A stretch of DNA of 64,000 bases from a virus (taxonomy: Duplodnaviria; Heunggongvirae; Uroviricota; Caudoviricetes). This document shows, one piece after another, positions 1 through 63,873 of the stretch. The notes below the pieces were generated by a model. That model saw only the letters and a list, made by a program, of their open reading frames with translations. It was not told where the DNA came from and made no database searches. Position numbers and translations under genes: made by a program. The first letter of the stretch is position 1. Each line of letters begins with the position of its first letter. The stretch lies in IMG/VR virus record IMGVR_UViG_2671180724_000008; one strand, given 5' to 3'.

Positions 1-1473
1 TCTGAACACTTCTTCTTTGATCTGCCCTCTTTCAGCGAAATGTTGCAGGCATGGACCCGCAGCGGTGCGTTGCAGGAGCAGGTGGCAAACAAAATGCAGG
101 AGTGGTTTGAATCTGGTCTGCAACAGTGGGATATCTCCCGCGACGCACCTTACTTCGGTTTTGAAATTCCGAACGCGCCGGGTAAATATTTCTACGTCTG
201 GCTGGACGCACCGATTGGCTACATGGGTTCCTTCAAGAATCTGTGCGACAAGCGCGGCGACACTACCAGCTTTGATGAATACTGGAAGAAAGACTCCACC
301 GCCGAGCTGTACCACTTCATCGGTAAAGATATCGTTTACTTCCACAGCCTGTTCTGGCCTGCCATGCTGGAAGGCAGCAACTTCCGCAAGCCGACCAACC
401 TGTTTGTTCACGGCTATGTGACGGTGAACGGCGCGAAGATGTCCAAGTCTCGCGGCACCTTTATTAAAGCCAGCACCTGGTTGAATCATTTTGACGCTGA
501 CAGCCTGCGTTACTACTACACCGCCAAACTGTCTTCGCGCATTGATGATATCGATCTCAACCTGGAAGATTTCGTTCAGCGCGTGAATGCCGATATCGTG
601 AACAAAGTGGTTAACCTGGCCTCCCGTAATGCGGGCTTTATCAACAAACGTTTTGACGGCGTGCTGGCAAGCGAACTGGCTGACCCGCAACTGTACAAAA
701 CCTTTACTGATGCCGCTGAAGTGATTGGCGAAGCATGGGAAAGCCGCGAATTTGGTAAAGCTATCCGTGAAATCATGGCATTGGCTGACCTAGCTAACCG
801 CTATGTCGATGAACAGGCTCCGTGGGTGGTGGCGAAGCAGGAAGGACGCGATGCCGATCTGCAGGCGATTTGCTCTATGGGCATTAACCTGTTCCGCGTG
901 CTGATGACTTACCTGAAACCGGTACTGCCGAAACTGACAGAACGTGCGGAAGCATTCCTCAATACGGAACTGACTTGGGATGGCATCCAGCAACCGCTGC
1001 TGGGCCATAAAGTGAATCCGTTCAAAGCACTGTATAACCGTATCGACATGAAACAGGTGGAAGCATTGGTGGAAGCGTCTAAAGAAGAAGTGAAAGCTAC
1101 TGCCGCGCCAGTTACTGGCCCGCTGGCAGACGACCCGATTCAGGAAACCATCACCTTTGACGACTTTGCCAAAGTTGACCTGCGCGTGGCGCTGATCGAA
1201 AACGCAGAGTTTGTTGAAGGTTCTGACAAACTGCTGCGCCTGACGCTGGATCTCGGCGGTGAAAAACGCAATGTCTTCTCAGGCATCCGTTCCGCTTATC
1301 CAGACCCACAGGCACTGATTGGCCGTCACACCATTATGGTGGCTAACCTGGCTCCGCGTAAAATGCGTTTCGGTATCTCCGAAGGCATGGTGATGGCTGC
1401 TGGCCCCGGCGGGAAAGACATCTTCCTGTTAAGCCCGGATGCTGGTGCTAAACCTGGCCACCAGGTTAAGTAA
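1..1473 (+). CDS. metG: Methionyl-tRNA synthetase, C-terminal ~477 aa (5' end lies upstream of the window)
   Basis: Translation is recognisable as E. coli-type MetG (KMSKS motif present as KMSKSRGT; C-terminal tRNA-binding domain); the frame is open from base 1, so the gene is truncated by the window edge. Confidence 0.93.
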
Positions 1474-14888: not shown

Positions 14889-14897
14889 GGATTTGCC

Positions 14898-15164: not shown

Positions 15165-15188
15165 TCGGTCTGGGAGCTTATTTAAAGA

Positions 15189-15243: not shown

Positions 15244-15279
15244 CTTAATAAGACATGCCCAGACCTAATTAAACAACCC

Positions 15280-15322
15280 AGAAAACAAGTTGGTTAGAAA
15301 ATGCAGTAAACAAGTTGTTTTA
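15280..15322 (+). promoter_or_regulatory. Two operator motifs (agaaaacaagttggtta; gtaaacaagttgtttta) upstream of the terminase operon
   Basis: Members of the GAAAACAA..TTGTTT family. Confidence 0.5.
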
Positions 15323-15360
15323 GAGCGCATGGACGCGCTCTGTGTGTTTTAGAGGGATCT

Positions 15361-17249: not shown

Positions 17250-17275
17250 GTAAGTAATTATCTAAGGTTATTCAA

Positions 17276-18850: not shown

Positions 18851-18871
18851 TAAGTAACAAAGGGAATTTTT

Positions 18872-19759
18872 ATGAAACTGTGGCAAATGCTTTTGGCCCG
18901 TCGTGGTCTGATGGATGTTGCTGAAGCGCATGAGCGTGGGGGCGCTGGCGGTGTAGCTGCTGATAATGAGCAGAGTACACAAGATCCTGACAAGCAGGGT
19001 GAACAAAAAGAGCAGCCGAAGGGTGATGACGAATACGCTGGCATGACTCATGAAGAGTTACTGGCCGAACTTCGCAAAACCAAGAAAGCTGGTGCTGAAC
19101 TGCTGAAAGAGAACATGAAGCGCAAAGAGAAAGAGCGCACATTGGCCGATCAGCTTGCTCAGTACGGTGAAATCGACCCGGCGCGTGCTCGCCAGCTTTT
19201 AGAAGCTGAACAGGCCGCAGAAAACGCACGTCGTGAGGCGGAGCAAGCTGAACTGGAGCGTCGTGGTGAGTTCGATGCTGTTAAAAAACAGATGATCGAA
19301 GCACACCAGGCAGAGCTGGCACAGCGTGACGAACGTTATGCAGCACTGGAAAGTGAAAACGCATCACTGAAATCTCAATTAGTCGAGATGACCGTGGGCG
19401 CTTCCTTCAGTAACTCTCTCTTCCTACGTGACAAAGTTCTGATGACTCCGGCAAAAGCCCGCGTGATCTACGGTTCTCATTTTGAAGTGGGTGAAGACGG
19501 TAGCGTAGTGGGTTATGACAAACCGGCAGGTCATAAAGAACGAGCTGTTCTGGTTGACGGTGAAGGTAAGCCGTTGCCGTTTGAATCCGCGATTGAACGC
19601 ATTGTGCGGGCAGATCCGGAAGCTGACGCATTGATGCGTAGCGAAGCCAAGCAGGGTGTAGGCTCACATTCCAAATCGACCTACACAATATCCCAACCGA
19701 AGAACAAGTCGACTATGGATAAGTTGGCCTCCGGTCTGGGGAAAATTGGACTTAAGTAA
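18872..19759 (+). CDS. Scaffolding protein
   Basis: Ala/Glu/Arg-rich coiled-coil protein between portal and capsid. Confidence 0.6.
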   Translation: MKLWQMLLARRGLMDVAEAHERGGAGGVAADNEQSTQDPDKQGEQKEQPKGDDEYAGMTHEELLAELRKTKKAGAELLKENMKRKEKERTLADQLAQYGEIDPARARQLLEAEQAAENARREAEQAELERRGEFDAVKKQMIEAHQAELAQRDERYAALESENASLKSQLVEMTVGASFSNSLFLRDKVLMTPAKARVIYGSHFEVGEDGSVVGYDKPAGHKERAVLVDGEGKPLPFESAIERIVRADPEADALMRSEAKQGVGSHSKSTYTISQPKNKSTMDKLASGLGKIGLK

Positions 19760-19784
19760 CATCTAAATCAAAGGGAATTGATAG

Positions 19785-20660
19785 ATGCCATTACTGCGTG
19801 AAGAAGCTGAAAAGCTGTCTAACAACGAACTTGAACAGGGCGTGATTGAAACCATCATCGATCGCGATGACCTGTTTGCCATCCTGCCTTTTATGAAAAT
19901 TACTTCAAAGGCATATCTGTACAACCGTGAAAAAACGCTGAGTGAAGCTACCTTCATCGACGTTAACGACACCATCCCGGAAGGTGCAGCAACCTTCGAA
20001 GAATGCGTTGCGAAACTGCGTATTCTGGCTGGTGACGTAGACGTTGATAAATTCCTGGCAACCACTATGGCCGACACCAATAACCAGTTGGCTATTCAGG
20101 TTCGTCAGAAAGTTAAAGGTCTGGCTCGTGCGTTCCGTCGCAATCTGATTTTGGGTGACTCCAGCACCAACAACAAAGCGTTTGACGGCATTCCACGCCT
20201 GATGCACGCAGATCAGAAGATCGATATCGCCGGTGCATCTATGACTTTCTCTATGTTCGACGAACTGGTCGATGCGGTGAAAGATCTTGGTGCTGACTGC
20301 ATCATGATGCGTTCAGAGCACCTTCGTGCTTACCGTGCGCTGCTGCGTACAGTAAACGTAGGTCCGTCTGAAATCATGATGGAGAACTTCGGTCGTCCGA
20401 TGCTGTGTCATAACGGCGTTCCGTTCATCATCAACGACTTCATCCCGACTGATTCTGGCAAAGCAAGCATCTACTGCTTGCATCTGTCAGAAGAGAACGG
20501 CGTTACTGGTCTGTATGGCGGCGATAACGCAGGTATCGTTGTTGAAAACATTGGTACTGTACAGAACAAAGACGCAGTACGTACCCGTGTGAAGTGGTAC
20601 TGCTCTCTGGCGAATAAGCACGATAAGGCTATCGCTGCACTGACCAATGTAAAAATTTAA
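19785..20660 (+). CDS. Major capsid protein
   Basis: 291 aa, follows scaffold; followed by a strong terminator. Confidence 0.7.
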   Translation: MPLLREEAEKLSNNELEQGVIETIIDRDDLFAILPFMKITSKAYLYNREKTLSEATFIDVNDTIPEGAATFEECVAKLRILAGDVDVDKFLATTMADTNNQLAIQVRQKVKGLARAFRRNLILGDSSTNNKAFDGIPRLMHADQKIDIAGASMTFSMFDELVDAVKDLGADCIMMRSEHLRAYRALLRTVNVGPSEIMMENFGRPMLCHNGVPFIINDFIPTDSGKASIYCLHLSEENGVTGLYGGDNAGIVVENIGTVQNKDAVRTRVKWYCSLANKHDKAIAALTNVKI

Positions 20661-37723: not shown

Positions 37724-40700
37724 ATGTGGTACAGGGAAGGTACTATCACATTTACACAGGGTAGCAATACTCTGGTTGGGGTTGGGACAGCCTGGAACGT
37801 AACAGCTAATGGTGTGTTGCCGGGGATGATCGTCATTGGCCCCGACAATAAGCTGTATGAGATCAAGCGCGTAACAAGCGATACGAATATTGTTCTCTCA
37901 GAACCTTATACCGGCGAAACTCAGTCTGAAGTTCCGTGCCGAATCATTACGACCTATGAAGGCGACTTAACACAGTTTAGCGCGCGCTTTACTGCGCTAA
38001 TGTCGCGTATGTCGGCTGATTCCAAGTCCATGCGCAGTTGGTTGACTGCTCTTGATGAGGTGACAATCGAGCGTGAAGACGGTACAGAAGTTACCGTTAA
38101 GCCGCTGATGCAGATCGTCAACGAGCACAACGAAAACGTTGAGTGGTATAAAAATAACACCGACGCGATTGACGCTGCTGGCGACAAAGCTCGTGAGGCG
38201 GCGGCCAGTGCTGCCGCAGCAGCAGAAAGCGCCAATACCGCTGGAGAAAAAGCCTCTCAAGCGTCTCAAAGTGCATCCGCTGCGGAATCCTCACAAAGTG
38301 CTGCAAGTGCGAGTGCAACTGCTGCGAAAAAATCTGAAACGAACGCAGAATCAGCATATGTCGCGGCAGCAGAATCAGCATCTGTAGCGTCGACTAAAGC
38401 ATCGGAGGCGGCCACATCTGCGTCCAGTGCCTCTGCATCTAAGGATGCGGCTAAAGCATCAGAGGCTAACGCTTCATCGAGTGCAAACGCGGCGGCATCA
38501 TTTGCAACAGAAGCTGAAAATTCGTCTAAGGCAGCAAAAGCGTCAGAGACAAACGCAAAAGCATCTGAAACGGCAGCCGGGCAGAGTGCATCGTCTGCAA
38601 ACAGTTCGAAATCTGCGGCAGAAGCGTCAGCAAGCGCAGCCTCAGCAAGTGCGGATAGTGCTTCATCAAGTGCAACTGCGGCAGGAAAATCTGCGGAAAG
38701 CGCGTCGTCATCAGCGGCAACAGCTACCGCAAAAGCGACTGAGGCGACGAATCAGGCTACAGCCGCTAAAAATTCAGCATCAGCAGCGAAAACCTCTGAA
38801 ACAAATGCAAAGTCTTCAGAAGACAATGCCGCTTCCTCTAAGACTGCGGCTGCTGAATCTGCAAGTTCTGCGTCAGCATCAGCCACCTCGGCGTCTGCTT
38901 CAAAGGATGAGGCGACCAAGCAGGCATCAGCTGCGAAGGGTAGTGCTTCAACGGCATCCACGAAAGCAACAGAGGCGGCAGGCAGTGCGACGGCTGCATC
39001 TCAGAGCAAAACTGCTGCTGAATCCGCTGCGACTCGTGCAGAAGCTGCCGCTGATCGTGCTGAAGAGATTGCCGGTGCAGTTGCGATGGAAGACGCAAGC
39101 CTTACAACTAAAGGTGTTGTGAAACTTAGCAGTGCTGTCGATAGCACCAGCGAATCACTGGCTGCAACTCCAAAGGCAGTTAAAGCTGCGAATGACAATG
39201 CGAATAGCCGATTGGCGAAGAACCAGAATGGTGCTGATATACCAGGTAAGGATACCTTCACGAAAAATATTGGCGCTGGGCGAGCATTTGGAGGCTCTGT
39301 AAGTACAACAGCAGGAAACTGGACTACGGCACAGTTTGTCGAATGGTTGGACTCTCAAGGGGCGTTTAATCATCCGTACTGGATGTGTAAAGGCTCATGG
39401 TCGTATGGCAACAACAAAATCATTACTGATACTGGTTGTGGCAATATTCATCTTGCCGGGGCAGTAATTGAGGTAATGGGGATAAAGTCAGCAATGACGA
39501 TCCGCGTTACCACACCAACAACATCTAGCGGTGGTGGTACTGCTAACGCTCAATTTACTTATATTAACCACGGGACAGATTATTCTCCAGGCTGGCGACG
39601 AGACTACAATACAAAATACAAACCTACGCCATCGGATATAGGTGCATTATCAACATCAGGAGGGACGGTTTCAGGTCCGTTGTCTGTTACTGGTGGATTA
39701 ACTGGTTCATTGAATGGCAATGCGAGTACCGCCACGAAATTGCAGACTGCAAGAACTATCGGCGGCGTGGCCTTCGATGGATCTGCGAACATAAATTTGC
39801 CTGGTGTAAACACGGCAGGTAATCAGAGCACTACTGGTAATGCCGCAACCGCTACAAAACTTCAAACGGCAAGAACGATTGGTGGCGTTTCATTTAACGG
39901 AACTGCCAACATCGACTTGCCCGGAGTTAACAAAGCTGGCAACCAAAGCACCACAGGTAATGCTGCTACAGCTACTAAATTGCAGACAGCAAGAACCATC
40001 GGTGGTGTAAGCTTCGATGGCACTGCGAATATTAATTTGCCTGGTGTTAATGCTGCCGGTAATCAGAACACTACCGGTAACGCGGCCACAGCGACCAAGT
40101 TGCAAACTGCTAGAACTATTAACGGGGTGTCGTTTAACGGCTCTGCGAATATTTCAATACCAACAATTACGTCCAGAGGACGCGTTACTGCGCTCACCGG
40201 TACAACACAAGGTGCTGCGACTGGATTGCAGATGTACGAGGCATATAACAATGGCTACCCTTCGACTTACGGGAATGTGCTTCATCTTAAGGGCGCAACG
40301 GCCGTTGGTGAAGGTGAGTTGTTCATAGGTTGGAGCGGTACAAGTGGTGCTCATGCGCCTGTACATGTACGTTCGCGACGAGATACGGATACATCCAGTT
40401 GGTCTGAATGGGCGCAAGTTTATACGTCCAAAGACTCTATTCCAGGTGTCAATGCCACCGGTAATCAGAACACTACTGGCAACGCAGCCTCTGCAACGAA
40501 GTTGCAGACAGCCAGAACAATTGGAGGTGTGTCGTTTAATGGTACCGCCAATATTAACTTGCCGGGTGTTAATATAGCGGGTAATCAGAATACGACTGGT
40601 AACGCAGCTTCAGCCACGAAGTTACAAACGGCTCGTACCATCGGTGGTGTTAGTTTTAACGGTACAGCCAATATTAACTTACCTGGTGTGAATACGACCG

Positions 40701-41251
40701 GTAATCAGAACACTACTGGTAATGCTGCAACCGCCACAAAATTGCAGACAGCAAGGAAAATTGCTGGTGTTGCGTTTGATGGCTCTGCCGATATAACTTT
40801 GACTGCGGCTAACCTTAATGCTTATACGAAAACAGAGGTAACAAACCTTCTAAGTTCCTATGTGAAGAGCAGTGCTCTTCCAAGCATGACTGTGCGAACT
40901 TCCTCTGTATCAGGTGGGGATATGGGCATGAGTTTGTCTGCGTTCATTAGCCACCTTAAATCAAATGGAGCGTTTAGCAAAAGTTATTGGATTGGCTTTG
41001 GCGATGCTATGGGATTCAATGCTGGTAGTATCAACAATATAACGGGATTTGGTGCTGTAGAATTAGCAGAATCTATAATCGAAGTTTTTAATCTACCTAA
41101 CGGTGATTATACAATTCGTTTAACAACATCACATAAAGCTGACTACGGTGGAGTTACAAACGCAATCCTCGTTTATCACTACCGTAGTAATAGAAGTCCG
41201 TCAGGTCAATGGCTGAAATTTGCCGGTACTGTTGGGGCAACAAGCAACTGA
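37724..41251 (+). CDS. Tail fibre protein
   Basis: 1175 aa; Ala/Ser-rich low-complexity segment (~38150-39100), then about 8 tandem ~35-aa repeats GNQ(N/S)TTGNAA(T/S)ATKLQTARTIGGV(S/A)F(N/D)G(T/S)ANI.LPGVN, distinct C-terminal domain. Confidence 0.85.
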   Translation: MWYREGTITFTQGSNTLVGVGTAWNVTANGVLPGMIVIGPDNKLYEIKRVTSDTNIVLSEPYTGETQSEVPCRIITTYEGDLTQFSARFTALMSRMSADSKSMRSWLTALDEVTIEREDGTEVTVKPLMQIVNEHNENVEWYKNNTDAIDAAGDKAREAAASAAAAAESANTAGEKASQASQSASAAESSQSAASASATAAKKSETNAESAYVAAAESASVASTKASEAATSASSASASKDAAKASEANASSSANAAASFATEAENSSKAAKASETNAKASETAAGQSASSANSSKSAAEASASAASASADSASSSATAAGKSAESASSSAATATAKATEATNQATAAKNSASAAKTSETNAKSSEDNAASSKTAAAESASSASASATSASASKDEATKQASAAKGSASTASTKATEAAGSATAASQSKTAAESAATRAEAAADRAEEIAGAVAMEDASLTTKGVVKLSSAVDSTSESLAATPKAVKAANDNANSRLAKNQNGADIPGKDTFTKNIGAGRAFGGSVSTTAGNWTTAQFVEWLDSQGAFNHPYWMCKGSWSYGNNKIITDTGCGNIHLAGAVIEVMGIKSAMTIRVTTPTTSSGGGTANAQFTYINHGTDYSPGWRRDYNTKYKPTPSDIGALSTSGGTVSGPLSVTGGLTGSLNGNASTATKLQTARTIGGVAFDGSANINLPGVNTAGNQSTTGNAATATKLQTARTIGGVSFNGTANIDLPGVNKAGNQSTTGNAATATKLQTARTIGGVSFDGTANINLPGVNAAGNQNTTGNAATATKLQTARTINGVSFNGSANISIPTITSRGRVTALTGTTQGAATGLQMYEAYNNGYPSTYGNVLHLKGATAVGEGELFIGWSGTSGAHAPVHVRSRRDTDTSSWSEWAQVYTSKDSIPGVNATGNQNTTGNAASATKLQTARTIGGVSFNGTANINLPGVNIAGNQNTTGNAASATKLQTARTIGGVSFNGTANINLPGVNTTGNQNTTGNAATATKLQTARKIAGVAFDGSADITLTAANLNAYTKTEVTNLLSSYVKSSALPSMTVRTSSVSGGDMGMSLSAFISHLKSNGAFSKSYWIGFGDAMGFNAGSINNITGFGAVELAESIIEVFNLPNGDYTIRLTTSHKADYGGVTNAILVYHYRSNRSPSGQWLKFAGTVGATSN

Positions 41252-45258: not shown

Positions 45259-45382
45259 CAATTAGGCGACTTCTGTCGCCTTTTTTGTTAACAGCCATTG
45301 ATTCTCGCCTAAAAATTCTAAGGCAGCACCTACCATTTAACCTTTACACAGCAGCCGTAGGCATTTAGGCTATATCACATAT

Positions 45383-45399
45383 AAGAAAACAAGTTGTTT
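45383..45399 (+). promoter_or_regulatory. Operator motif agaaaacaagttgtttc upstream of parA-like gene
   Basis: Member of the early operator family. Confidence 0.5.
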
Positions 45400-45434
45400 C
45401 AGACAATAATAATAGACGCAAAGGGAACTCTCCA

Positions 45435-46103
45435 ATGACCAAGATCTTTGTGGTTGGCGGCACAAAGGGCGGGCCTGGCAAATCCACTGTTGCCCAGCAA
45501 ATTGCCGTTTGCCTGAAAGTCAAAAAGAAGAAGAAGGTTTATATCACTGATATAGATATTCAGCGCACGACAACAAGCTGGTGTGAAGACCGTCGACAGA
45601 ACGAAGACCTTGAGCTGATTCCTTTTGCCTACGTTCAGGATGACATCATTAAGCACCTAAAATCGCTTCAGGGTAGAGCTGAGTTTGTAGTGGTAGATGC
45701 TGGTGGCTTTGACTCCGAAATTCAGCGACAAGCGATGCTGATGGCCGACGTTATCATTATCCCGCTGCGTCCTAAGCGTCGTGATTTGAAATCTCTGCGT
45801 GACATCGATCCTATTATCGACAATGTTCGTAATGTAAACGATAAAGTGAAGGTCCGCGCGGTCATGAACCAGTGCCCGGCTTTGCCATCACAAGTGTCTC
45901 GCATTCTGGCGGCTAAAGAGATTGTCGAGACGTTTGGCATCGAGTCTGCGCCAGTCAATCTATATAACCGCAACGTCTACGATGATGCGGAAGAGTCTGG
46001 TCGTTCTATCTTCGAAATGACCGGTAGCGAGCGCGACAAAAAGGCTGAAGCCGAGTTTGAAGAATTTGTAGATTATCTGTTGAGTCTGGAGGAAGAAGAA
46101 TAA
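45435..46103 (+). CDS. ParA/MinD-family partition ATPase
   Basis: Deviant Walker A GGTKGGPGKST; small ParA size typical of type Ib partition systems. Confidence 0.8.
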   Translation: MTKIFVVGGTKGGPGKSTVAQQIAVCLKVKKKKKVYITDIDIQRTTTSWCEDRRQNEDLELIPFAYVQDDIIKHLKSLQGRAEFVVVDAGGFDSEIQRQAMLMADVIIIPLRPKRRDLKSLRDIDPIIDNVRNVNDKVKVRAVMNQCPALPSQVSRILAAKEIVETFGIESAPVNLYNRNVYDDAEESGRSIFEMTGSERDKKAEAEFEEFVDYLLSLEEEE

Positions 46104-46462
46104 TGTCCATGAAAATGGGTGACCTAGCAAAGCGCAAAGAGCCTGATGCACCGGCTAAGAACACAACTCCTTTGCGCCAACCAGTCAGACCACAGGGACG
46201 CCCGACTCGTGGCAAAGAGAAAATTAAGAGCCGCACGATGTCACTGGAGGACGAATACTTCGAACTGCTGGAGATGATGAAGTTCATCCCTCGTTTCGAG
46301 AAATTCACCCGTTCAGACGTGATTCGCGCAGCCATTTTCCATCTGGCAGAGAAGTCACCGCAGGAAATCGAGGACATCGTGAAACTTAACGAGGCGATCA
46401 CAGCTGCCGATGTCACGATGCGTACCGATGAAATCAAACGAGAGTTGATGAAAAAAGGTTAA
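46103..46462 (+). CDS. Ribbon-helix-helix centromere-binding partner (ParG-like)
   Basis: Basic disordered N-terminus, C-terminal RHH-like segment; ATGT overlap with parA-like stop. Confidence 0.55.
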   Translation: MSMKMGDLAKRKEPDAPAKNTTPLRQPVRPQGRPTRGKEKIKSRTMSLEDEYFELLEMMKFIPRFEKFTRSDVIRAAIFHLAEKSPQEIEDIVKLNEAITAADVTMRTDEIKRELMKKG

Positions 46463-46466
46463 AAAT

Positions 46467-46500
46467 CATGCATTGGCGCAATGTACGCGCCAATGCATGA
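46467..46500. repeat. Perfect 14-bp inverted repeat tcatgcattggcgc / gcgccaatgcatga (7-nt loop) between convergent genes
   Basis: Read directly; A-run upstream makes it a plausible terminator for the minus-strand gene. Confidence 0.7.
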
Positions 46501-46514: not shown

Positions 46515-47282
46515 TTATGCCGCGCTAACACTATGTTCAGTCCTAACCACCCCAACCTTCACAAAAGGGCTACCGTAGCTTGGTGGCTTCTTGATTAATT
46601 TGCCTACATACAGTTTTCTAATATGCTCATCGGCTATTCTGCCAACAAATTCATAACGTTTTGTGTCGGGGCCAAGAGCTATATCCCTTGTAAAGTACTG
46701 CTGAGAACCGGCTTTGACCCAGCATTCAATCCGATAAACTTCCATTATCAGCCCACCATATGTAGCGTAGGCATATTTGAGATTCTCGTCTCTTGGAACC
46801 TTTGCCCATACGCCACGCGTAGCTTCATATAATGCCAGAGCGGACATTCCTGACTTGTAGGTGCTGTTTAGCAGGAAGGCAAGACCGGCGTGCTCAGGAG
46901 CAATTTCAGTTTCCTCTTGCAGCACTAAGTGATGGTAGGCGTCCAGTGATATTCTGCCCATCATGGAACCACTTCCTCGTACCTTATTCGTAAGCTCTCC
47001 GACCCCCATAAGGTCGATGCATGTCGCCTCAACAAGTTTGGCTGTGGTTTCATCCATACCATGACGAAGTATATCTATGCCTAATTTTTTATTAGCCAAA
47101 AGTTCTTTGATCCGCATGGATTTGGGAGAGTCATCGGGATACTTGATGTGATCGAGACAACGAGTCGATTTGCCTTTTCCTATGTAAAACGGTCTTTTCA
47201 TCTTGTCTTCTGTATCATAGAGACAGTAAACATAGTATTTAGCCTTATCCAATGATCTCGCGTATACCGATAAATCGTCCAT
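46515..47282 (-). CDS. GIY-YIG nuclease family protein
   Basis: N-terminal YYVYCLYD...FYIGKGKSTR matches the GIY-YIG motif; only minus-strand gene within ~35 kb of plus-strand genes. Confidence 0.65.
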   Translation of the reverse strand: MDDLSVYARSLDKAKYYVYCLYDTEDKMKRPFYIGKGKSTRCLDHIKYPDDSPKSMRIKELLANKKLGIDILRHGMDETTAKLVEATCIDLMGVGELTNKVRGSGSMMGRISLDAYHHLVLQEETEIAPEHAGLAFLLNSTYKSGMSALALYEATRGVWAKVPRDENLKYAYATYGGLIMEVYRIECWVKAGSQQYFTRDIALGPDTKRYEFVGRIADEHIRKLYVGKLIKKPPSYGSPFVKVGVVRTEHSVSAA

Positions 47283-55255: not shown

Positions 55256-55331
55256 TGATGGTGTAGCTCAGCGGTAGAGCAGTTGGCTGTTAACCAACTG
55301 GTCGGTGGTTCGAATCCACCCACCATCGCCA
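55256..55331 (+). tRNA. tRNA-Asn (anticodon GTT), phage-type
   Basis: Manual cloverleaf fold: acceptor GATGGTG/CACCATC, anticodon loop CTGTTAA, T-loop GGTTCGAATCC, encoded CCA; differs from E. coli tRNA-Asn. Confidence 0.85.
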
Positions 55332-55336
55332 ATTTA

Positions 55337-55423
55337 GGGGAGTTAGTCCGTAGAGGTAGCGGTGTAGACTGTAAATCTACTGTCATTGCGACTCGGGTGG
55401 TTCGACTCCATCACTCCCCACCA
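55337..55423 (+). tRNA. tRNA-Tyr (anticodon GTA) with long variable arm
   Basis: Acceptor GGGGAGT/ACTCCCC, anticodon loop CTGTAAA, T-loop GGTTCGACTCC, encoded CCA. Confidence 0.8.
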
Positions 55424-55427
55424 AATT

Positions 55428-55503
55428 GCCGGTTTAGCTCAGTTGGTAGAGCGCCTGCCTTGTAAGCAGGATGTCAGCGGTTCGTGTCCGTTAACCGGCA
55501 CCA
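55428..55503 (+). tRNA. tRNA-Thr (anticodon TGT)
   Basis: Acceptor GCCGGTT/AACCGGC, anticodon loop CTTGTAA, T-loop GGTTCGTGTCC, encoded CCA. Confidence 0.8.
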
Positions 55504-55507
55504 ACAT

Positions 55508-55595
55508 AATATTGAGAACATTGGCGTAACGGGGTCATATCCCAATCTATGAATAAATGTTACGTTGCCGCGTGACAACCAGTGTTCTCAACATT
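55508..55595. repeat. Nested inverted repeat immediately 3' of tRNA-Thr (aatattgagaacattgg / ccagtgttctcaacatt with inner cgtaac/gttacg)
   Basis: Read directly; candidate processing element or small structured RNA. Confidence 0.55.
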
Positions 55596-56170
55596 GTGGT
55601 GAATGCACAGGCTGATGTGCCGCAACTACAGTAGTGCGCGCTTTGCGGGGCTTGCTACAACCCTGTGTCGGAGATCAGCGCCGACCATCACAATTTGGCT
55701 CTCTTGCAACAGCATAACGCTGAAATATGTCCAACCTGGTGCGGCCTGTTCACCCGCCGTTAGCTCCACGAAACGGAGCGCACAACAGATAAGAGAACTT
55801 CCCATATGGGGCTTGGCTTAAATGCATCGAGTTCTCTTATCGCTGTGTCACAGACAAATTTCCGACAGCCCTGTTTATCATCGGACGCAACCTAAAAGGT
55901 CGAGGCAAAGCCAGGTAATAGCGGAGGGAGTGACACAGCACACAACAGGTAAGAGCATTTGTAGAGTTCGACTCTCTACCGTGGGCTTTTTCCCGCGATG
56001 CGAGCCATAAATGCTCTTTCCGTTGTGGTGGATTCGCAGACTGATGCGATAGCTTTCTTGGATGTTAGGGAAATGCGGCCGCAAATCTTCCCTTTCGCGA
56101 GCGGTGATCGTCCGTAGTCCTAATTGGCTGCACCGTATGCCGGAGATTCAGTACCGGCCACCACAACGGC

Positions 56171-56257
56171 CGGAGAGTAGGGAGCATGGTGCTCAAGCGG
56201 TCTTGAAAACCGTCCCATTGTGCAAACGATGATGGTTCGATTCCATTACTCTCCGCC
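56171..56257 (+). tRNA. tRNA-Ser (anticodon TGA) with long variable arm
   Basis: Acceptor GGAGAGT/ACTCTCC, anticodon loop CTTGAAA, T-loop GGTTCGATTCC, encoded CCA. Confidence 0.8.
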
Positions 56258-56260
56258 AGA

Positions 56261-57845: not shown

Positions 57846-57883
57846 CAACAAATGATAGGTGTGTACATATCTATCATTTGTTG
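57846..57883. promoter_or_regulatory. Perfect 13-bp inverted repeat caacaaatgatag / ctatcatttgttg in the divergent promoter region
   Basis: Read directly; lies between the start of the minus-strand 444-aa gene and the plus-strand glutaredoxin gene. Confidence 0.55.
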
Positions 57884-58254: not shown

Positions 58255-58288
58255 AAATGATTCCATACCTACTATGTATGGAATCATT
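58255..58288. promoter_or_regulatory. 13-bp inverted repeat aatgattccatac / gtatggaatcatt (7-nt spacer) upstream of integrase
   Basis: Read directly; the half-site aaatgattccatac also occurs at 54031-54050 and 55046-55063. Confidence 0.55.
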
Positions 58289-58386: not shown

Positions 58387-59490
58387 ATGAAAAATAGCTT
58401 TGACAGAGCACGCGCTGCGGAGAACACCTCAAAAGAGGCGATTGAGTATCTCGAAAGAGCATCTCAAATGCAGGCCGTTATGATCTCGCAGGTTAGCAAT
58501 GACATGAGATTCTCGGACGCATTCATGTTATTCACTCGCTTATCTCTGCTTATAACCAGACGTCGGCCAGAGATCGCTGTTCATTGTATTTTGATACATG
58601 TTTTGCCGCACATTGCTGATGTAAAAGTAAGTGACATTAATAGGTTCATGGTGAACCAACTGGTAAACCCACTAATACTGGATGGCAAAATTGTTATGGG
58701 CCGCCGCGTTTTCTCTCTGATGAAGCAGTTCCTTAGCTGGTGCGCCTTCCAGGGGATGATAGACGTGTCACCGTTAAACGATATGTCACTAAACAAAGTT
58801 GCCGGTGGCGCAAAGCCCACACCTCGCGAGCGGAAGCTGACCGACGCAGAGGTATGGGTGTTCTGGAATATATGGGACTACTTCAATGTGTGCGCTGGTA
58901 CAAAATGGGCGGCCAGGCTGTGTCTTGTATCAGCAAGACGACCTGACGAAGTACTGCGGGCTAAAAAAAGTGAGTTCAATCTTAAGCGTGGGGTTTGGAA
59001 TCAAGGCAAGAGAAACAAGTCAGCACGTGAGCATTCGCTGCCTTTAAGCACATTAATGCGCACATGCATTGAAGAGTTGTTCGAATACGGTAAAGACAGC
59101 CAGTGGCTCGTGCCTTCGAATAAAAAAATCGGGAAAGACCTTCCTATGTCTAAAGTGGCAATAGCCCAGGCATTACGTCGTATTCTGGAACGACCAGAAC
59201 TGATGGAGCTTGAGCCATTTACACCCCGAGATTTGCGCCGTACTGCGCGTAGTTACTTCCCAGCATTAGGCATAAGCCAGGAGGTATCACGCAAAATCAT
59301 GAACCACAGTCTTGAGGGGATAGATCGGGTCTACGACCGGCACGATTATATGGACGAGATGCGAGACGCCTTAGAAAGTTTCTCGACGTACATCGCATCA
59401 ATCGTAGAGCAACCGGATTTAGACGAAATTGACCACAAATTCAAGGGAGATCGTCTATCAACAGAGCTTATTCGTGTAAATTTTTCATAG
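58387..59490 (+). CDS. Tyrosine integrase (site-specific recombinase)
   Basis: C-terminal catalytic pattern: Arg in RRPDEV, HSLEGIDRVYDRHDY region with His/Arg and terminal Tyr; 367 aa. Confidence 0.85.
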   Translation: MKNSFDRARAAENTSKEAIEYLERASQMQAVMISQVSNDMRFSDAFMLFTRLSLLITRRRPEIAVHCILIHVLPHIADVKVSDINRFMVNQLVNPLILDGKIVMGRRVFSLMKQFLSWCAFQGMIDVSPLNDMSLNKVAGGAKPTPRERKLTDAEVWVFWNIWDYFNVCAGTKWAARLCLVSARRPDEVLRAKKSEFNLKRGVWNQGKRNKSAREHSLPLSTLMRTCIEELFEYGKDSQWLVPSNKKIGKDLPMSKVAIAQALRRILERPELMELEPFTPRDLRRTARSYFPALGISQEVSRKIMNHSLEGIDRVYDRHDYMDEMRDALESFSTYIASIVEQPDLDEIDHKFKGDRLSTELIRVNFS

Positions 59491-59871
59491 AGACTTTATG
59501 GCCTCAACAACCTTTTGTGATGCGCCTTTCTCTTTACCGAATCGCTCGTTATATGCAGCAAGAACCTGTTTTTCGTCCTCGTTAAGAGGAGCGGTGCCTT
59601 CTTTGTATAAAAATGCTGCGAGTTCAGGTTGGCGTTCTTCCAGCACCATCATCATAAGACGACTTGGCTCAATACCCAGCGCCAGCGCCAGCGGACGAAC
59701 CTTATCGATAGGCAAAGGAATTTTGCCACTTTTAATTAAAGAAAGGTTGTTGGCATTTTTATAACCAATAAGTCTGGCTATTTGGGCCTGACTCATAGGT
59801 GAGGATTCAATCAGCCCTGCGATAAAAGCAGCATAGCGACTTTCTATAAATTCAATCTTGTTGTCAGACAT
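59485..59871 (-). CDS. XRE-family helix-turn-helix transcriptional regulator (CI/Cro-like repressor)
   Basis: HTH segment SQAQIARLIGYKNANNLSLIKSG; convergent with integrase, 6-nt overlap. Confidence 0.75.
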   Translation of the reverse strand: MSDNKIEFIESRYAAFIAGLIESSPMSQAQIARLIGYKNANNLSLIKSGKIPLPIDKVRPLALALGIEPSRLMMMVLEERQPELAAFLYKEGTAPLNEDEKQVLAAYNERFGKEKGASQKVVEAIKSL

Positions 59872-60433: not shown

Positions 60434-62542
60434 ATGTCTAAAAAACGTTCCATCAAAGAGGTTCAGGACTTCCGTGACAGTGTAAAACGAGTAGTCGCTC
60501 TCCTTTCAGGTAAAAACATCCCTGTTGCAGAACGAGGGGACGACGCTTATGTACGCTATAACGATGATGGAGAGCCAATTCTCGTAAACATCCCATCAAT
60601 CCCGGATAACGCAACACCGGCATTGATGAATGCTGTGCGCGGATTTCTCGATCATGAGGTTGCTCACATTTTGTTTACCGATATTCGTGTGTCCAACAAA
60701 ATGAGAGAAAAAGGACGCGTTCCTTCCTGGTCGCTATGGAATGCCTTAGAAGACGTGTTCATCGAGCGAAAAATGGGGCAGGTCTTTAACGGAACAAGAC
60801 GTAATCTGATGGCAACTCAGCGCCTTATAATCGAAAAAGTCTTTAAACCAAAGGCTTCAGAGGCTATTGCTTATTGTGGCAAAGATCAGCGCGCGCTTTT
60901 TCTAAACTTCTTTCTCTGTCCGGTTGTAAGAGCCTGGGATGGCCAAGCACCGTTCGTAGATTTCATGGATGAATACTGGCCTGTCATTGAGAAACCAATT
61001 TCATTATTAAAAGAACATGGTATCGATGTGGCCGTGCGTAACATGTCTTGCACCGAGGATTGTGTAAAGGTGGCTGCGACCATAGCTAAGATCCTCAAAG
61101 ACACTGAAAGTGAAAGCAAAGGTAAGGAGTCAGCTCCGGGAAAAACTTCCGATCCTTCAGACGCTGACCAGACGGATGCCTCTGGAGAAAACAATGAAGA
61201 CAACGAAGATCATGAGACACCCTCAGCGTTAGATAATCACAAATCTATCGAATCAGAATCACACAGTAAGCACAAACATGATAATAACGACAGTGATGAT
61301 TCAGATAATTCTGAATCATCAGAAACAATATTCGATGATACAGAAAATGATAAAGAGGTATCAGATTCTGATGCTTCTGATAACGCGGCGTCAGAATCAT
61401 TAACCGCTGGCCACGAAAAAAGAAAAACGACAGAAGACGGCTCTTCAGATATTCCAACTCCGTCAAAAATGAGTCTGGAAGAGGCTTTAGAGGAGCTGGA
61501 TAGCATAGAAGATGAAGTCGGAGGCATGACAGAAGATGCTCTATCCGAAACGATTAAAAGCGAGTTAACAGAAAGCTCGAAAAGCGAATACAGGCCATAC
61601 AATCGCTCATACGACTTCATCGGCTCGATTGATCAGGCAGAAGCCCATATCAAACGGCTTATTAAAACATTCTCCGATATTGATTTAGGAGGATATCCAA
61701 TCAGCCGCTATCGCATCGTTCCTGAAGGCAACCAGCTCTTCGACAAATATATTGAAAAGCATCTTTCGTCAGGTGTTTCGTCGACGCTGGCAAAAGACCT
61801 GGAGCGAGCAATAGCAAGCAGAAACAGAGTTCAGTTTATACCGGGCCAGCGTCGGGGGCGCATTCATGGTTCTAGTATCTACAGATTAGCAATGAATGAT
61901 GATCGCGTGTTTCGTAAAAAAGAAGAATCTAAAGCCGTTAACGCCTGTGTTCAACAAGTGATTGATTTATCAGGTTCAATGAGTGGCGAAACGATAAAAC
62001 TAGCTCTTGCAAGTGCATATACCATCGCCGATGCTCTTGATCGAATAAATGTTCCCAACATTATCACCGGCTTCACTACATTTGGCAGTCATCTGGCAGC
62101 GATAGAACTTAAGGCTATCAAGTATGAGTTCTCTCGCTTTGAATCTTTAATGCTACCTATCATCAAAAATTGGAATGAAAAAGCAAATTCTCGCGAAGTT
62201 CGCTCACGTATGGGGTGCGTAGGCTACACATTCCCACTTCTTAATAACGTGGATGGTGAAAGCATAGCCAGCCTTGCATCGTTATTTTCCGGTCGCATGG
62301 AGGACAGGAAGATCATGCTTGTTCTGAGCGATGGCGAGCCGCTGGCTGTTGGGAGAGGTTTTGACGCTCATTTGCGTTCGGTTGCGAAGCAAATTGAAAC
62401 GCAGACTGACATTGATTTGATGGCAATTGGCATCATGACTGACGCACCGGAGAGATTTTACGCAAATCATGCCCTGGTAACGAGCGTTGATAGTCTTGGT
62501 TCATCTGTAGTTACTGAACTATCTCGTATCATTTTGAAGTGA
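60434..62542 (+). CDS. von Willebrand factor A (vWA) domain protein with acidic Ser/Asp-rich linker (CobT-like)
   Basis: C-terminal MIDAS motif DLSGSMSGE; long acidic low-complexity linker around residues 230-330; 702 aa. Confidence 0.7.
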   Translation: MSKKRSIKEVQDFRDSVKRVVALLSGKNIPVAERGDDAYVRYNDDGEPILVNIPSIPDNATPALMNAVRGFLDHEVAHILFTDIRVSNKMREKGRVPSWSLWNALEDVFIERKMGQVFNGTRRNLMATQRLIIEKVFKPKASEAIAYCGKDQRALFLNFFLCPVVRAWDGQAPFVDFMDEYWPVIEKPISLLKEHGIDVAVRNMSCTEDCVKVAATIAKILKDTESESKGKESAPGKTSDPSDADQTDASGENNEDNEDHETPSALDNHKSIESESHSKHKHDNNDSDDSDNSESSETIFDDTENDKEVSDSDASDNAASESLTAGHEKRKTTEDGSSDIPTPSKMSLEEALEELDSIEDEVGGMTEDALSETIKSELTESSKSEYRPYNRSYDFIGSIDQAEAHIKRLIKTFSDIDLGGYPISRYRIVPEGNQLFDKYIEKHLSSGVSSTLAKDLERAIASRNRVQFIPGQRRGRIHGSSIYRLAMNDDRVFRKKEESKAVNACVQQVIDLSGSMSGETIKLALASAYTIADALDRINVPNIITGFTTFGSHLAAIELKAIKYEFSRFESLMLPIIKNWNEKANSREVRSRMGCVGYTFPLLNNVDGESIASLASLFSGRMEDRKIMLVLSDGEPLAVGRGFDAHLRSVAKQIETQTDIDLMAIGIMTDAPERFYANHALVTSVDSLGSSVVTELSRIILK

Positions 62543-62637
62543 TTAAAACAGCCTTAACGATAAGTAACTACTTATGATAGTTAATGATATATTTATATAA
62601 GAAGTTGAACGCTCATTAGAGAACAAAGGAAAAACGC

Positions 62638-63873
62638 ATGACTACTACTGCACTGCAAAATGAAAAAAATCCTTCTGATTACCTTGTTTGCAAGTGGTGC
62701 GGAAAATCATTTCACTATTTTAAGTCCCATGTAGCCTATGGTAATTGCGAGGGCATTCCTGAGTCGGTAAAAGATGCCGATCCTGACACCGTACTGAAAA
62801 TGTACACAACGCAGTTTCCAGATGAACCAACGCTATCGAAAAAGGCACTTGATGCAATTCAAGCTAAACGTGCCGAGCAAAAAAGCGAAATGGCCAAATC
62901 TTCTGGTGTGACCAGTAGCCCAGGCTACATAGGCACAGTTGAGTACAAGACAGATCTGGTCGCAGCTCACGAACTGCTAGACGTAACGGTGGAAGAACTC
63001 GGAACAAAACGTGGGACGCCGCTCATGGTTAGCGTCAACGTCAATACGCCGTTTCCAGAGTTCGTTCCTGAAGTGAAGAAGGGCTACGTATATGGCGACT
63101 TCGAACTGATCAAAGACATTTTCATGATGCTTGAACTTGGCATACCAGGCTATTTGTGGGGACATGCAGGAACAGGCAAATCGTCATTGCCTACACAGCT
63201 ATGTGCTTTGCTCAATCGTCCGTTGATCCGTGCCCAACATACAGCATCAATGGAAGAAGCTCATGTTACGGGTCAAATTCTGGCGCGTGATGGCTCTACG
63301 TATTTCGAGCCAGGCTTGCTTGCGCTCGCAATGAAGCATGGCTGGGTTTACCTCGCGGATGAATACGACTTTGCGTTTCCACAAATTCTTGGCGTGTATC
63401 AGCCAGTGCTGGAAGGTGAAGCGTTGGTCATCAAAGAGGCGACACCAGAATGGCGTCGCATTACTCCGCATAAACGGTTTGCTTTTATTGGCACTGGCAA
63501 CACGAACGGATCTGGTGATGAAACCGGCTTGTACCAGGGTACAAACATCCAGAACGCCGCGAACTTTTCGCGTTTTGGCATCGTTTCGAATGTGAAATAC
63601 ATGAGCAAAGAGGCAGAGATCAACATGTTGATAAATGCCGGCATTGTGGATGAGTACGCTGAAAAGATGGTTAAGTTTGCCGGTATCGTTCGCGATGGTT
63701 ACGAAGAACACAATATCAGCCAACCGATTGGGCCTCGTGAGCTTTTGTTGTCGGCCAAGATTGGAATGATGCGAGGCGACTTTGTGACAGGTATTGAGCG
63801 TTCTTTCATTAACAAACTCCCTTCAGCTTCTGCACAAGCGGCTCGTGAAGTTGTTCAAAAAATATTTGGTTGA
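62638..63873 (+). CDS. AAA+ ATPase (MoxR/CobS-like)
   Basis: Walker A GHAGTGKSS, Walker B VYLADEYD; N-terminal CxxC...C segment; directly downstream of the vWA gene. Confidence 0.75.
   Translation: MTTTALQNEKNPSDYLVCKWCGKSFHYFKSHVAYGNCEGIPESVKDADPDTVLKMYTTQFPDEPTLSKKALDAIQAKRAEQKSEMAKSSGVTSSPGYIGTVEYKTDLVAAHELLDVTVEELGTKRGTPLMVSVNVNTPFPEFVPEVKKGYVYGDFELIKDIFMMLELGIPGYLWGHAGTGKSSLPTQLCALLNRPLIRAQHTASMEEAHVTGQILARDGSTYFEPGLLALAMKHGWVYLADEYDFAFPQILGVYQPVLEGEALVIKEATPEWRRITPHKRFAFIGTGNTNGSGDETGLYQGTNIQNAANFSRFGIVSNVKYMSKEAEINMLINAGIVDEYAEKMVKFAGIVRDGYEEHNISQPIGPRELLLSAKIGMMRGDFVTGIERSFINKLPSASAQAAREVVQKIFG

What the first reader, a model, noticed from the sequence alone, without database searches (positions are those of the whole stretch)
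45435..46500. ParA/RHH partition pair inside an element that also carries an integrase: phage-plasmid lifestyle signal
A small ParA with a deviant Walker box and a ribbon-helix-helix partner form a type Ib-like partition module, with an early-type operator upstream at 45383. Together with DnaB-like helicase, primase, ligase and iteron-like repeats this suggests extrachromosomal maintenance. Yet the element abuts chromosomal metG and encodes a tyrosine integrase at 58.4 kb, so it may be an integrated phage-plasmid or a composite of two elements.
Basis: partly seen in the sequence, partly recalled or inferred. Interest (0 to 1): 0.5.

Follow-up and report, generated by a model that had tools for sequence, protein, structure and literature searches.

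The report
Partition genes of SSU5-type phage-plasmid
This is the plasmid-partition cassette (a small ParA ATPase plus an unannotated 119-residue partner) of a well-known SSU5/pHCM2-type phage that lives as a free ~110 kb plasmid; it is not integrated next to a chromosomal metG, because the metG copy is carried by the plasmid itself.

Summary
The two genes exist as described. 45435-46103 encodes a 222-aa ParA with the deviant Walker A box KGGPGKS; its best solved relative is ParF of TP228 (type Ib). 46103-46462 overlaps its stop codon and encodes a 119-aa protein with no annotation (phrog_5111).

The ribbon-helix-helix fold is plausible but unproven. Only sub-threshold RHH family matches support it, and three fold searches found nothing.

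The whole 64 kb window is colinear with closed circular ~110 kb E. coli plasmids of the SSU5/pHCM2 phage-plasmid family. In 5,426 complete E. coli genomes the par cassette (319 places) and the integrase segment (255 places) lie only on plasmids. metG is plasmid-borne: about 98% identical to the plasmid copies, 90-95% to chromosomal metG.

So "phage-plasmid" is right and already known. "Integrated" or "composite" is wrong.

The "operator at 45383" is real. It is one of at least 11 copies of a 16-bp palindrome at early promoters. It persists in pMT1, which lacks this par pair, so another regulator probably binds it.

A 77-nt block upstream of parA is 91-99% conserved where synonymous sites are only 51-61% conserved. 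It is the best centromere/promoter candidate. Modest new point: the true ParA partner is this overlooked ORF, not the distant "parB".

The parts
45329..45405 (+). Conserved non-coding block upstream of parA. It holds the promoter region, a TAGGC-N3-TAGGC direct repeat (45358-45370) and the shared palindromic operator. It is the best candidate for the par operator/centromere.
   Evidence: The block is 70-76 of 77 nt identical in eight relatives whose parA third-codon positions are only 51-61% identical (94% in the near-identical p009_B) (alignment A2). Homology of many plasmids to the window begins exactly here, at query position 79-80, which equals window 45328-45329. The part upstream of the operator has no other copy in the window.
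45385..45400 (.). 16-bp palindromic operator GAAAACAAGTTGTTTC. It is one copy of a motif shared by at least 11 promoter-proximal sites in the window.
   Evidence: The pattern GAAAACA-N3-TGTTTY with at most 1 mismatch gives 15 matches, against 0.44 expected from shuffles. The sites lie just downstream of -10-like GATAAT hexamers and a few to ~50 nt before start codons of + strand genes; two promoters carry pairs 51 bp apart. The motif is kept upstream of parA in relatives down to 67% ParA identity.
45435..46103 (+). parA: a 222-aa type Ib-like Walker ATPase with the deviant Walker A box KGGPGKS at residues 11-17.
   Evidence: ParF of TP228 matches at E 1.2e-10 over residues 9-199.
46103..46462 (+). 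Partner gene (119 aa; an alternative start at 46109 gives 117 aa). It has a conserved N-terminal MGDLAKR/K peptide, a disordered basic linker, a predicted strand-helix-helix core (residues ~43-84) and two further helices. It is the proposed centromere-binding protein and ParA activator.
   Evidence: It overlaps the parA stop codon. parA-partner synteny holds in all 14 related loci, down to 52% ParA identity, and in outgroup ParA relatives at 42-46% identity. The P. syringae partner is homologous (E 2e-7). Invariant and near-invariant residues are L8, K10, I41, R44, S47, R70, D72 and R75. Sub-threshold RHH matches appear. The AlphaFold model of residues 38-119 has pLDDT 81.7.
46466..46500 (-). 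Perfect 14-nt inverted repeat with a 7-nt loop, followed by TTTTT on the minus strand. It is the probable terminator of the convergent GIY-YIG gene (46515-47282) and is not part of the conserved par cassette.
   Evidence: It is not conserved in relatives that lack the GIY-YIG gene.
58387..59490 (+). Tyrosine recombinase of the phage-plasmid backbone, probably a multimer resolvase.
   Evidence: Pfam Phage_integrase matches at E 4.7e-10. All 255 places in complete E. coli genomes are on plasmids. The gene is conserved in pMT1.
58256..58288 (.). Candidate recombination site: 13-7-13 perfect palindrome AATGATTCCATAC-CTACTAT-GTATGGAATCATT.
   Evidence: The arms are identical in p009_B and in Y. pestis pMT1, at the same distance upstream of the integrase.
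1..1473 (+). Plasmid-borne metG, with its 5' end cut by the window edge. It is not a chromosomal junction.
   Evidence: Pfam tRNA-synt_1g matches at E 7e-74. The gene is annotated as metG inside closed ~110 kb plasmids that match window 4-20000 at about 98%; chromosomal copies match at 90-95%.

Best explanation
The window is part of an SSU5/pHCM2-type phage-plasmid that is kept as a free, low-copy, circular ~110 kb plasmid. Positions 45329-46462 form its partition cassette, which is of type Ib design.

Proposed mechanism:
- ParA (222 aa, ParF-like) binds the nucleoid as an ATP dimer.
- The 119-aa product of the overlapping downstream gene binds as a dimer, most likely through a ribbon-helix-helix core (residues ~43-84). 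Its target is a site in or next to the 77-nt conserved block upstream of parA.
- The partner's conserved N-terminal peptide (MGDLAKR/K) on a disordered basic tail stimulates ParA ATP hydrolysis. This moves sister plasmids apart.
- The operon is transcribed from a promoter inside the conserved block. That promoter also carries one copy of a 16-bp palindromic operator shared with at least 10 other early promoters, including the replicative helicase gene. A different, element-wide regulator probably binds this operator.
- The tyrosine recombinase at 58.4 kb is a backbone gene. It most likely resolves plasmid multimers at the nearby 13-7-13 site, as Cre/lox does for P1.

Shown here: ParA family and motif; the operon structure; conserved synteny; constraint on the upstream block; plasmid-only distribution; plasmid-borne metG.

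Inferred: the RHH fold; the centromere location; ATPase stimulation by the N-terminal peptide; the resolvase role.
For: ParA identity.

The partner is coupled to ParA:
- one-base overlap of stop and start codons;
- invariant synteny in 14 loci down to 52% ParA identity;
- the same arrangement next to outgroup ParAs in P. syringae, Pseudoalteromonas and Agarivorans, with the P. syringae partner homologous at E 2e-7;
- the cassette behaves as a unit, since homology in many plasmids starts at 45328/9 and ends at the partner's stop codon.

Partner architecture:
- N-terminal leucine invariant in all 11 sequences aligned, K10 near-invariant within the family, with an MG(D/L)xLxK(K/R) peptide;
- residues 1-47 have no predicted secondary structure, and pLDDT is below 50 for residues 1-25;
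- helices at 48-59 and 70-82 follow the conserved IKSRTMS stretch;
- sub-threshold hits to RHH families, all in the same register: aCcr1_fam E 2.3e-4 (an RHH family according to PMC9976878), RHH_1 E 0.005 and 0.11, RHH_3 E 0.0087.

Cis element: the 77-nt block is 91-99% identical where synonymous positions are 51-61% identical.

Extrachromosomal state.

The operator is not par-specific: it has at least 11 sites. pMT1 has no SSU5-type ParA or partner (best tblastn E 0.73) yet keeps four operator sites, including a 51-52 bp pair.
Against: - The monomer model has a longer helix1-helix2 loop (about 10 residues) than classic RHH proteins.
- No array of short repeats, such as type Ib centromeres usually show, is evident upstream or downstream. 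Only two perfect TAGGC boxes lie inside the conserved block.
- The distant Morganella/Photorhabdus/Xenorhabdus relatives have a quite different upstream sequence.
- No experiment on this pair was found in the searched literature.
Confidence: 0.7

Rival explanations
1. ParA works with the ParB-N-domain proteins encoded 33 kb away (11973-12671 and 12638-13339). These are the genes that published annotations of these plasmids call 'parB'. On this view the 119-aa ORF is unrelated to partition.
For: Two tandem ParB_N proteins are present (Pfam E 3.3e-13 and 1.5e-8; phrog_723, 'ParB-like partition protein'). Papers list 'parA, parB' for pECOH89 and pAvM_E1373_29.
Against: - ParB-HTH partners go with type Ia ParAs, which have an N-terminal extension. 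This ParA aligns to ParF from residue 9 and has no such extension.
- The ParB_N genes sit with an ABC-type ATPase directly before the terminase.
- The same trio is kept in pMT1, which lacks this ParA and uses a separate large ParA/ParB pair.
- TIGR00180 parB_part scores below its cut-off (43.3 against 58.45 bits).
- The 119-aa gene is translationally coupled to parA and is syntenic with it everywhere.
Confidence: 0.07
2. The 119-aa protein is only a transcriptional autoregulator, or has some other role. ParA would then be an orphan positioning ATPase (MipZ/McdA-like) with no dedicated centromere, perhaps acting in the lytic cycle.
For: The top Pfam hit is MipZ, and PGAP sometimes names the protein MipZ. 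No repeat-array centromere was found. An Agarivorans homologue pair sits in a chromosome between pilZ and hslVU.
Against: - The best full-length solved match is the partition ATPase ParF.
- The cassette is found only on plasmids in E. coli and next to replication genes in P. syringae plasmids.
- The conserved N-terminal basic peptide on a disordered tail is the hallmark of ParA-activating partners (the hallmark itself is established knowledge of ParG, omega and ParB).
Confidence: 0.12
3. The 119-aa protein is an omega-like global regulator (as in pSM19035). It would bind the 16-bp palindromes at all early promoters, and these dispersed sites together would serve as the centromere.
For: The par promoter carries the same palindrome as at least 10 other promoters. 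In pSM19035 (established knowledge) the RHH protein omega is both global repressor and centromere-binding protein.
Against: - pMT1 has neither this ParA nor the 119-aa protein (best tblastn E 0.73) but retains four copies of the palindrome at homologous promoters, including a pair 51-52 bp apart.
- The distant relatives keep the conserved SRTxS strand of the partner but lack the palindrome upstream of parA.
Confidence: 0.05
4. One reading: the element is integrated in the chromosome next to metG through its integrase, or is a composite of an integrative phage and a plasmid.
For: A tyrosine integrase gene and a metG fragment at the window edge are present.
Against: metG, par, the integrase and all structural genes are colinear on closed circular ~110 kb plasmids. 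None of 319 par places and none of 255 integrase places is chromosomal in 5,426 complete E. coli genomes. The window's metG matches the plasmid copies at about 98%, against 90-95% for chromosomal copies.
Confidence: 0.03

Closest known systems
SSU5 / pHCM2-type phage-plasmids (SSU5 supergroup; Pfeifer et al. 2021, PMC7969092)
   Same: The par region is 84% identical to phage SSU5 and 92-99% identical to hundreds of E. coli plasmids. The whole window is colinear with ~110 kb circular plasmids. SSU5_033 is annotated 'ParA-like partition protein', followed by the hypothetical SSU5_034.
   Different: Nothing essential differs; this is a member of the group. Local differences are a GIY-YIG gene inserted after the cassette (present in only some relatives) and variable sequence upstream of 45329.
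ParF-ParG-parH of plasmid TP228 (type Ib partition)
   Same: ParA is small, has the KGGxxK[ST] box and no N-terminal HTH, and matches ParF at E 1.2e-10 over nearly its full length. The small partner gene lies directly downstream. The partner has a disordered N-terminal tail and a predicted strand-helix-helix core.
   Different: The partner shows no detectable similarity to ParG (hhalign probability 0.1%). It is 119 aa rather than 76 aa, with two extra C-terminal helices. No array of tetramer boxes like parH was seen.
delta-omega of pSM19035 (type Ib; the RHH protein doubles as global regulator)
   Same: It is a small ParA with a small partner carrying a basic N-terminal tail. The par promoter shares an operator with many other promoters of the element.
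   Different: The shared operator is a single 16-bp palindrome, not heptad arrays. It persists in pMT1 without the partner, so another protein probably binds it.
Phage P1 plasmid prophage: ParA-ParB-parS plus Cre/lox
   Same: The lifestyle logic is the same: a tailed phage kept as a low-copy plasmid, with an active partition system and a tyrosine recombinase next to a 13-n-13 palindromic site.
   Different: P1 uses a type Ia ParA with a ParB-HTH partner. Here the system is type Ib. Recombinase function at the 13-7-13 site is inferred, not shown.

Membership tests
Type Ib plasmid partition system | Small Walker-type ParA (about 190-310 aa) with the deviant Walker A box KGGxxK[ST] and no N-terminal HTH extension | tested here: met
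   The protein is 222 aa with KGGPGKS at residues 11-17. It aligns to ParF from residue 9 of the query to residue 8 of ParF.
Type Ib plasmid partition system | A small centromere-binding partner encoded directly downstream in the same operon | tested here: met
   The 119-aa ORF overlaps the parA stop codon. Synteny holds in 14 related loci and 3 outgroup loci. This test covers gene arrangement only; DNA binding was not tested.
Type Ib plasmid partition system | The partner is a dimeric ribbon-helix-helix DNA-binding protein | tested here: inconclusive
   There are sub-threshold RHH family matches in one register (aCcr1_fam E 2.3e-4, RHH_1 E 0.005 and 0.11, RHH_3 E 0.0087). No structural or PDB sequence match was found. 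A dimer prediction could not be run.
Type Ib plasmid partition system | A cis-acting centromere of repeated partner-binding sites next to the operon | tested here: inconclusive
   A strongly constrained 77-nt block lies upstream, but no clear repeat array is present. Binding was not tested.
Type Ib plasmid partition system | Stabilises an otherwise unstable replicon; the partner stimulates ParA ATPase | not testable with these tools
   This needs plasmid-loss and ATPase assays.
ParG family (TP228) | Sequence homology of the partner to ParG | tested here: not met
   hhalign of the family profile against ParG (sequence verified identical to 1p94_A) gives probability 0.1%.
SSU5/pHCM2 phage-plasmid group | Gene content and order shared with SSU5/pHCM2-like circular plasmids that carry a siphovirus structural module | tested here: met
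   All three thirds of the window align colinearly at 96-98% to single ~110 kb circular plasmids. The par region matches phage SSU5 at 84%. Terminase, tape measure and tail genes are present.
SSU5/pHCM2 phage-plasmid group | Extrachromosomal maintenance | tested here: met
   This holds at the family level: 319 of 319 par places and 255 of 255 integrase places are on plasmids in complete E. coli genomes. The state in the source isolate itself cannot be read from the window.
Integrated prophage at metG | A junction between element DNA and chromosomal DNA | tested here: not met
   The metG in the window is the plasmid-borne copy (about 98% to plasmids, 90-95% to chromosomes) and is colinear with plasmid genes.

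The most novel reading that the evidence does not exclude
The 119-aa protein founds an undescribed family of type Ib centromere-binding proteins: an N-terminal MGxLxK(K/R) ParA-activating peptide, an RHH-like core and a C-terminal helical hairpin. The family is paired with one ParF-like ParA clade in Enterobacterales phage-plasmids and P. syringae plasmids, and similarly built small partners accompany the related ParAs of marine gammaproteobacteria. In the SSU5 group its operon is placed under the phage's element-wide early operator, so partition-gene expression would be coupled to the phage's global regulatory switch.
Probability: 0.35. Interest if true: 0.4.

Novelty: new member of a known kind. 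Interest (0 to 1): 0.2.

Why it matters
The element and its lifestyle are already well documented, so the headline claim of a phage-plasmid adds nothing new. The suspicion of integration is an artefact of seeing a plasmid-borne metG at the window edge.

What is useful:
- SSU5/pHCM2-like plasmids are widespread in clinical Enterobacteriaceae and can carry ESBL genes. Even so, their partition system is annotated only as a lone 'ParA/AAA ATPase/MipZ' plus a distant 'parB'.
- Recognising the overlapping 119-aa ORF as the likely partner, and the 77-nt conserved block as the likely cis site, gives a defined 1.1 kb cassette to test for stability and incompatibility.
- The finding that the par promoter shares an operator with the early and replication promoters gives a concrete handle on how these elements coordinate plasmid maintenance with phage gene control.

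Tried and rejected
Fold of the partner:
- Foldseek against PDB with a full-length model (pLDDT 63) found nothing.
- The afdb50 library was unavailable.

Sequence-level RHH tests:
- Pfam on 12 close members gave no RHH hit.
- PDB profile searches with three alignments were empty.
- hhalign against ParG gave nothing.
- A full HMMER search of 1.8 billion representatives found only 18 relatives, so the family is narrow.

Repeats and nearby elements:
- Tandem Repeats Finder and the direct-repeat search found no iterons in 41-64 kb.
- The perfect inverted repeat at 46466-46500 was considered as a downstream centromere. It was rejected because it is absent from relatives without the GIY-YIG gene and reads as a minus-strand terminator.

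Hypothesis tested and disfavoured: the idea that the partner binds the shared palindrome (an omega-like role) was checked against pMT1 and disfavoured.

Literature: one search ('SSU5-like', 'metG') returned only irrelevant papers. No paper characterising this par pair was found.
Full report
**What is at the coordinates.** ORF 45435-46103 (+) encodes a 222-aa protein that begins MTKIFVVGGTKGGPGKST, which is the deviant Walker A box KGGxxK[ST]. It matches Pfam MipZ, AAA_31 and CbiA and PHROG 164, 'ParA-like partition protein', at E 4e-51. It also matches NCBIfam ParA_partition at 115.7 bits, below the equivalog cut-off of 180. Among solved structures the best match is ParF of TP228 (4dzz; 5u1g), E 1.2e-10. 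The alignment runs from residue 9 to 199 of the query against 8-189 of ParF. There is therefore no N-terminal HTH extension, and the A', Walker B and C-terminal regions are in register. This is a type Ib-like ParA.

The next ORF, 46103-46462 (+, 119 aa), starts with the A of the parA TAA stop codon (TAATG). RefSeq starts it two codons later, at the equivalent of 46109. It has no Pfam family and belongs to phrog_5111, 'unknown function'.

**What the element is.** The par region matches the phages PhiR41_1, CMS-2020a and Cyrano at 97-98% and Salmonella phage SSU5 at 84%. It also matches 704 plasmid records from Klebsiella, Escherichia, Enterobacter, Salmonella and others, 670 of them non-mobilizable. 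Window 1-20000, 20000-44000 and 40000-64000 each align colinearly, at 96-98%, to the same kind of closed circular ~110 kb E. coli plasmid. For example, NZ_CP048306.1 (110,182 bp, circular) covers 20000-64000 in one orientation. NZ_CP116406.1 covers both 4-20000 and 41328-64000. These are the SSU5/pHCM2-type phage-plasmids described by Pfeifer et al. (PMC7969092) and others.

**The metG and integrase argument.** The metG fragment at 40-1473 is annotated as metG inside about 200 such plasmids, which match the window at about 98%. All 5,424 chromosomal matches fall in the 90-95% band. So metG is cargo of the plasmid, and the 'junction' is only the window edge.

The tyrosine recombinase (58387-59490) and its divergent neighbour (59485-59871, which RefSeq annotates as an HTH regulator on related plasmids) occur at 255 places in 252 complete E. 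coli genomes, all on plasmids. The par cassette occurs at 319 places in 264 genomes, all on plasmids. The recombinase is also a backbone gene of Y. pestis pMT1.

About 100 bp upstream of the recombinase lies a perfect 13-7-13 palindrome, AATGATTCCATAC-CTACTAT-GTATGGAATCATT (58256-58288). Its arms are identical in p009_B and in pMT1. This is the geometry of lox and FRT (and, with shorter arms, dif). It suggests, by inference only, multimer resolution rather than chromosomal integration.

**Is the 119-aa protein the ParA partner?**
- In all 14 related loci fetched, parA is followed directly by a homologue of this ORF. These loci come from E. coli, SSU5, Klebsiella phages, Kluyvera, Buttiauxella, metagenome bins, Morganella, Photorhabdus and Xenorhabdus. 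ParA identity falls to 52% and partner identity to about 35%.
- ParA relatives outside the group, at 42-46% identity, also have a small overlapping downstream ORF of 117, 88 or 107 aa. They come from a P. syringae plasmid next to a replicase gene, from Pseudoalteromonas and from an Agarivorans chromosome.
- The P. syringae partner is homologous to the window protein (BLASTP E 2e-7, covering both the N-terminus and the core).
- In many plasmids homology to the window begins at 45328/9 and ends at the partner's stop codon, so the cassette moves as a unit.
- By contrast, the ParB-N-domain genes that published annotations call 'parB' lie 33 kb away, at 11973-13339, with an ABC-type ATPase in front of the terminase. 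The same trio is retained in pMT1, which has its own large ParA/ParB pair.

**Architecture and fold of the partner.**
- Alignments show an N-terminal peptide MG(D/L)xLxK(K/R). L8 is invariant in all 11 sequences aligned and K10 is near-invariant within the family.
- A variable basic linker follows. Residues 1-47 have no predicted secondary structure, and pLDDT is below 50 for residues 1-25.
- Next comes the nearly invariant stretch IKSRTMSxEDE, then helix 48-59, a loop, the motif TRSDVIRAA that opens helix 70-82, and two more helices.
- This is the pattern expected of an RHH protein with a ParA-activating tail, as known for ParG and omega (established knowledge). The direct tests were weak, however.
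- The positive evidence is entirely sub-threshold, though all in the same register: aCcr1_fam, E 2.3e-4, for the window protein (aCcr1 is an RHH family, PMC9976878); RHH_1, E 0.005 and 0.11, for two distant members; and RHH_3, E 0.0087, for the Agarivorans partner.
I rate the RHH fold as probable but unproven.

**Cis elements.** Upstream of parA, after the terminator of the preceding gene (45264-45281), lies a 77-nt block (45329-45405). It is 70-76 of 77 nt identical in eight relatives whose parA third-codon positions are only 51-61% identical (94% in the near-identical p009_B). That makes it about as constrained as first and second codon positions (alignment). It contains:
- -35/-10-like hexamers (TTTACA-N17-TAGGCT or TAGGCA-N16-TATAAG, not resolved);
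- a TAGGC-N3-TAGGC direct repeat (45358-45370);
- the palindrome GAAAACAAGTTGTTTC (45385-45400).

GAAAACA-N3-TGTTTY with at most one mismatch gives 15 matches in the window against 0.44 expected. These correspond to at least 11 sites (1556, 1607, 4242, 4727, 5630, 5681, 6166, 15306, 45385, 48315 and a weaker one near 60400). Each site lies a few to about 50 nt before the start of a + strand gene, most of them 9-10 nt after a GATAAT-type -10 hexamer. Two promoters have a second copy 51 bp upstream. The helicase gene carries one, and both the parA and helicase copies are conserved in relatives.

To ask whether the partner binds this palindrome, as omega does in pSM19035, I examined pMT1. It has no SSU5-type ParA or partner (best tblastn E 0.73). 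Yet it keeps the palindrome at four sites, including a 51-52 bp pair and the site before the cobT-like gene. The binder is therefore most likely another regulator common to the supergroup. The par-specific site should be sought in 45329-45384, which has no other copy in the window.

No repeat array typical of type Ib centromeres was found, so the centromere remains unidentified. The perfect inverted repeat at 46466-46500 is absent from relatives that lack the adjacent GIY-YIG gene. It is followed by TTTTT on the minus strand, so it is read as that gene's terminator.

**Other parts of the finding.** The helicase, the ligase and the primase-like gene are confirmed, although both Pfam hits for the primase-like gene fall below their gathering cut-offs. 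No iteron-like repeats were found between 41 and 64 kb.

**Verdict.**
- The 'phage-plasmid' reading is right but already known.
- The 'integrated or composite' reading is wrong.
- The RHH label is plausible but unverified.
- The modest new content has three parts: the overlooked 119-aa ORF, not the annotated 'parB', is the likely ParA partner; a sharply bounded and strongly constrained 77-nt upstream block is the candidate cis site; and the par promoter belongs to an element-wide operator network.
- No paper characterising this pair was found in the searchable library.

Noticed in passing
window 1556, 1607, 4242, 4727, 5630, 5681, 6166, 15306, 45385, 48315, ~60400: A 16-bp palindrome GAAAACA-N3-TGTTTY sits at at least 11 promoter-proximal sites, against 0.44 expected by chance. 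Most sites lie just after a GATAAT -10 hexamer, and two promoters have pairs 51 bp apart. It is also kept at four sites in Y. pestis pMT1. It looks like the operator of an element-wide regulator whose identity is unknown.
   Followed up: partly
window 1-1473: The phage-plasmid carries its own metG (methionyl-tRNA synthetase). It is about 98% identical among ~200 plasmids but only 90-95% identical to chromosomal E. coli metG.
   Followed up: partly
window 58256-58288: A perfect 13-7-13 palindrome lies ~100 bp upstream of the tyrosine recombinase gene. Its arms are identical in E. coli p009_B and Y. pestis pMT1. It is a lox/FRT-like candidate site for multimer resolution.
   Followed up: partly
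window 11973-14001: Two tandem ParB-N-domain proteins and an ABC-type ATPase lie directly before the terminase genes, and the trio is conserved in pMT1. Papers annotate these as 'parB', but they are unlikely to be the partition partner. Their function is unknown.
   Followed up: partly
window 9048-9650 (-): This gene encodes a full-length homologue of FljA, the repressor of phase-1 flagellin (Pfam Flag1_repress, E 2.5e-84). A phage-plasmid that may interfere with host flagellin expression is notable.
   Followed up: no
window 46515-47282 (-) and 46466-46500: A LEM-3-like GIY-YIG nuclease gene is inserted right after the par cassette in only some relatives. The 14-nt perfect inverted repeat next to it, followed by TTTTT on the minus strand, looks like its terminator.
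   Followed up: partly
window 55257-56258: A cluster of four tRNA genes (Asn-GTT, Tyr-GTA, Thr-TGT, Ser-TGA) lies on the phage-plasmid.
   Followed up: no
window 57846-57883: A 38-bp near-perfect palindrome (19-nt arms, no spacer) lies upstream of a glutaredoxin-like ORF.
   Followed up: no
window 39737-40116 and 40445-40771: Two arrays of ~120-bp tandem repeats (about 3 copies each, 71-75% matches) lie inside the 1175-aa tail fibre gene.
   Followed up: no
window 60434-63873: A CobT-like VWA protein (702 aa) and an AAA_5 (CobS/MoxR-like) ATPase (411 aa) form a pair that is conserved in the family and in pMT1. Their role is unknown.
   Followed up: no
L017 2501-3498; L018 141-1054; L019 2501-3479: ParA relatives at 42-46% identity occur in a P. 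syringae plasmid, in Pseudoalteromonas and in an Agarivorans chromosome (between pilZ and hslVU). All have an overlapping small partner that starts M(G/S)LxxLxK(K/R). The same ParA/partner design therefore extends well beyond phage-plasmids.
   Followed up: partly
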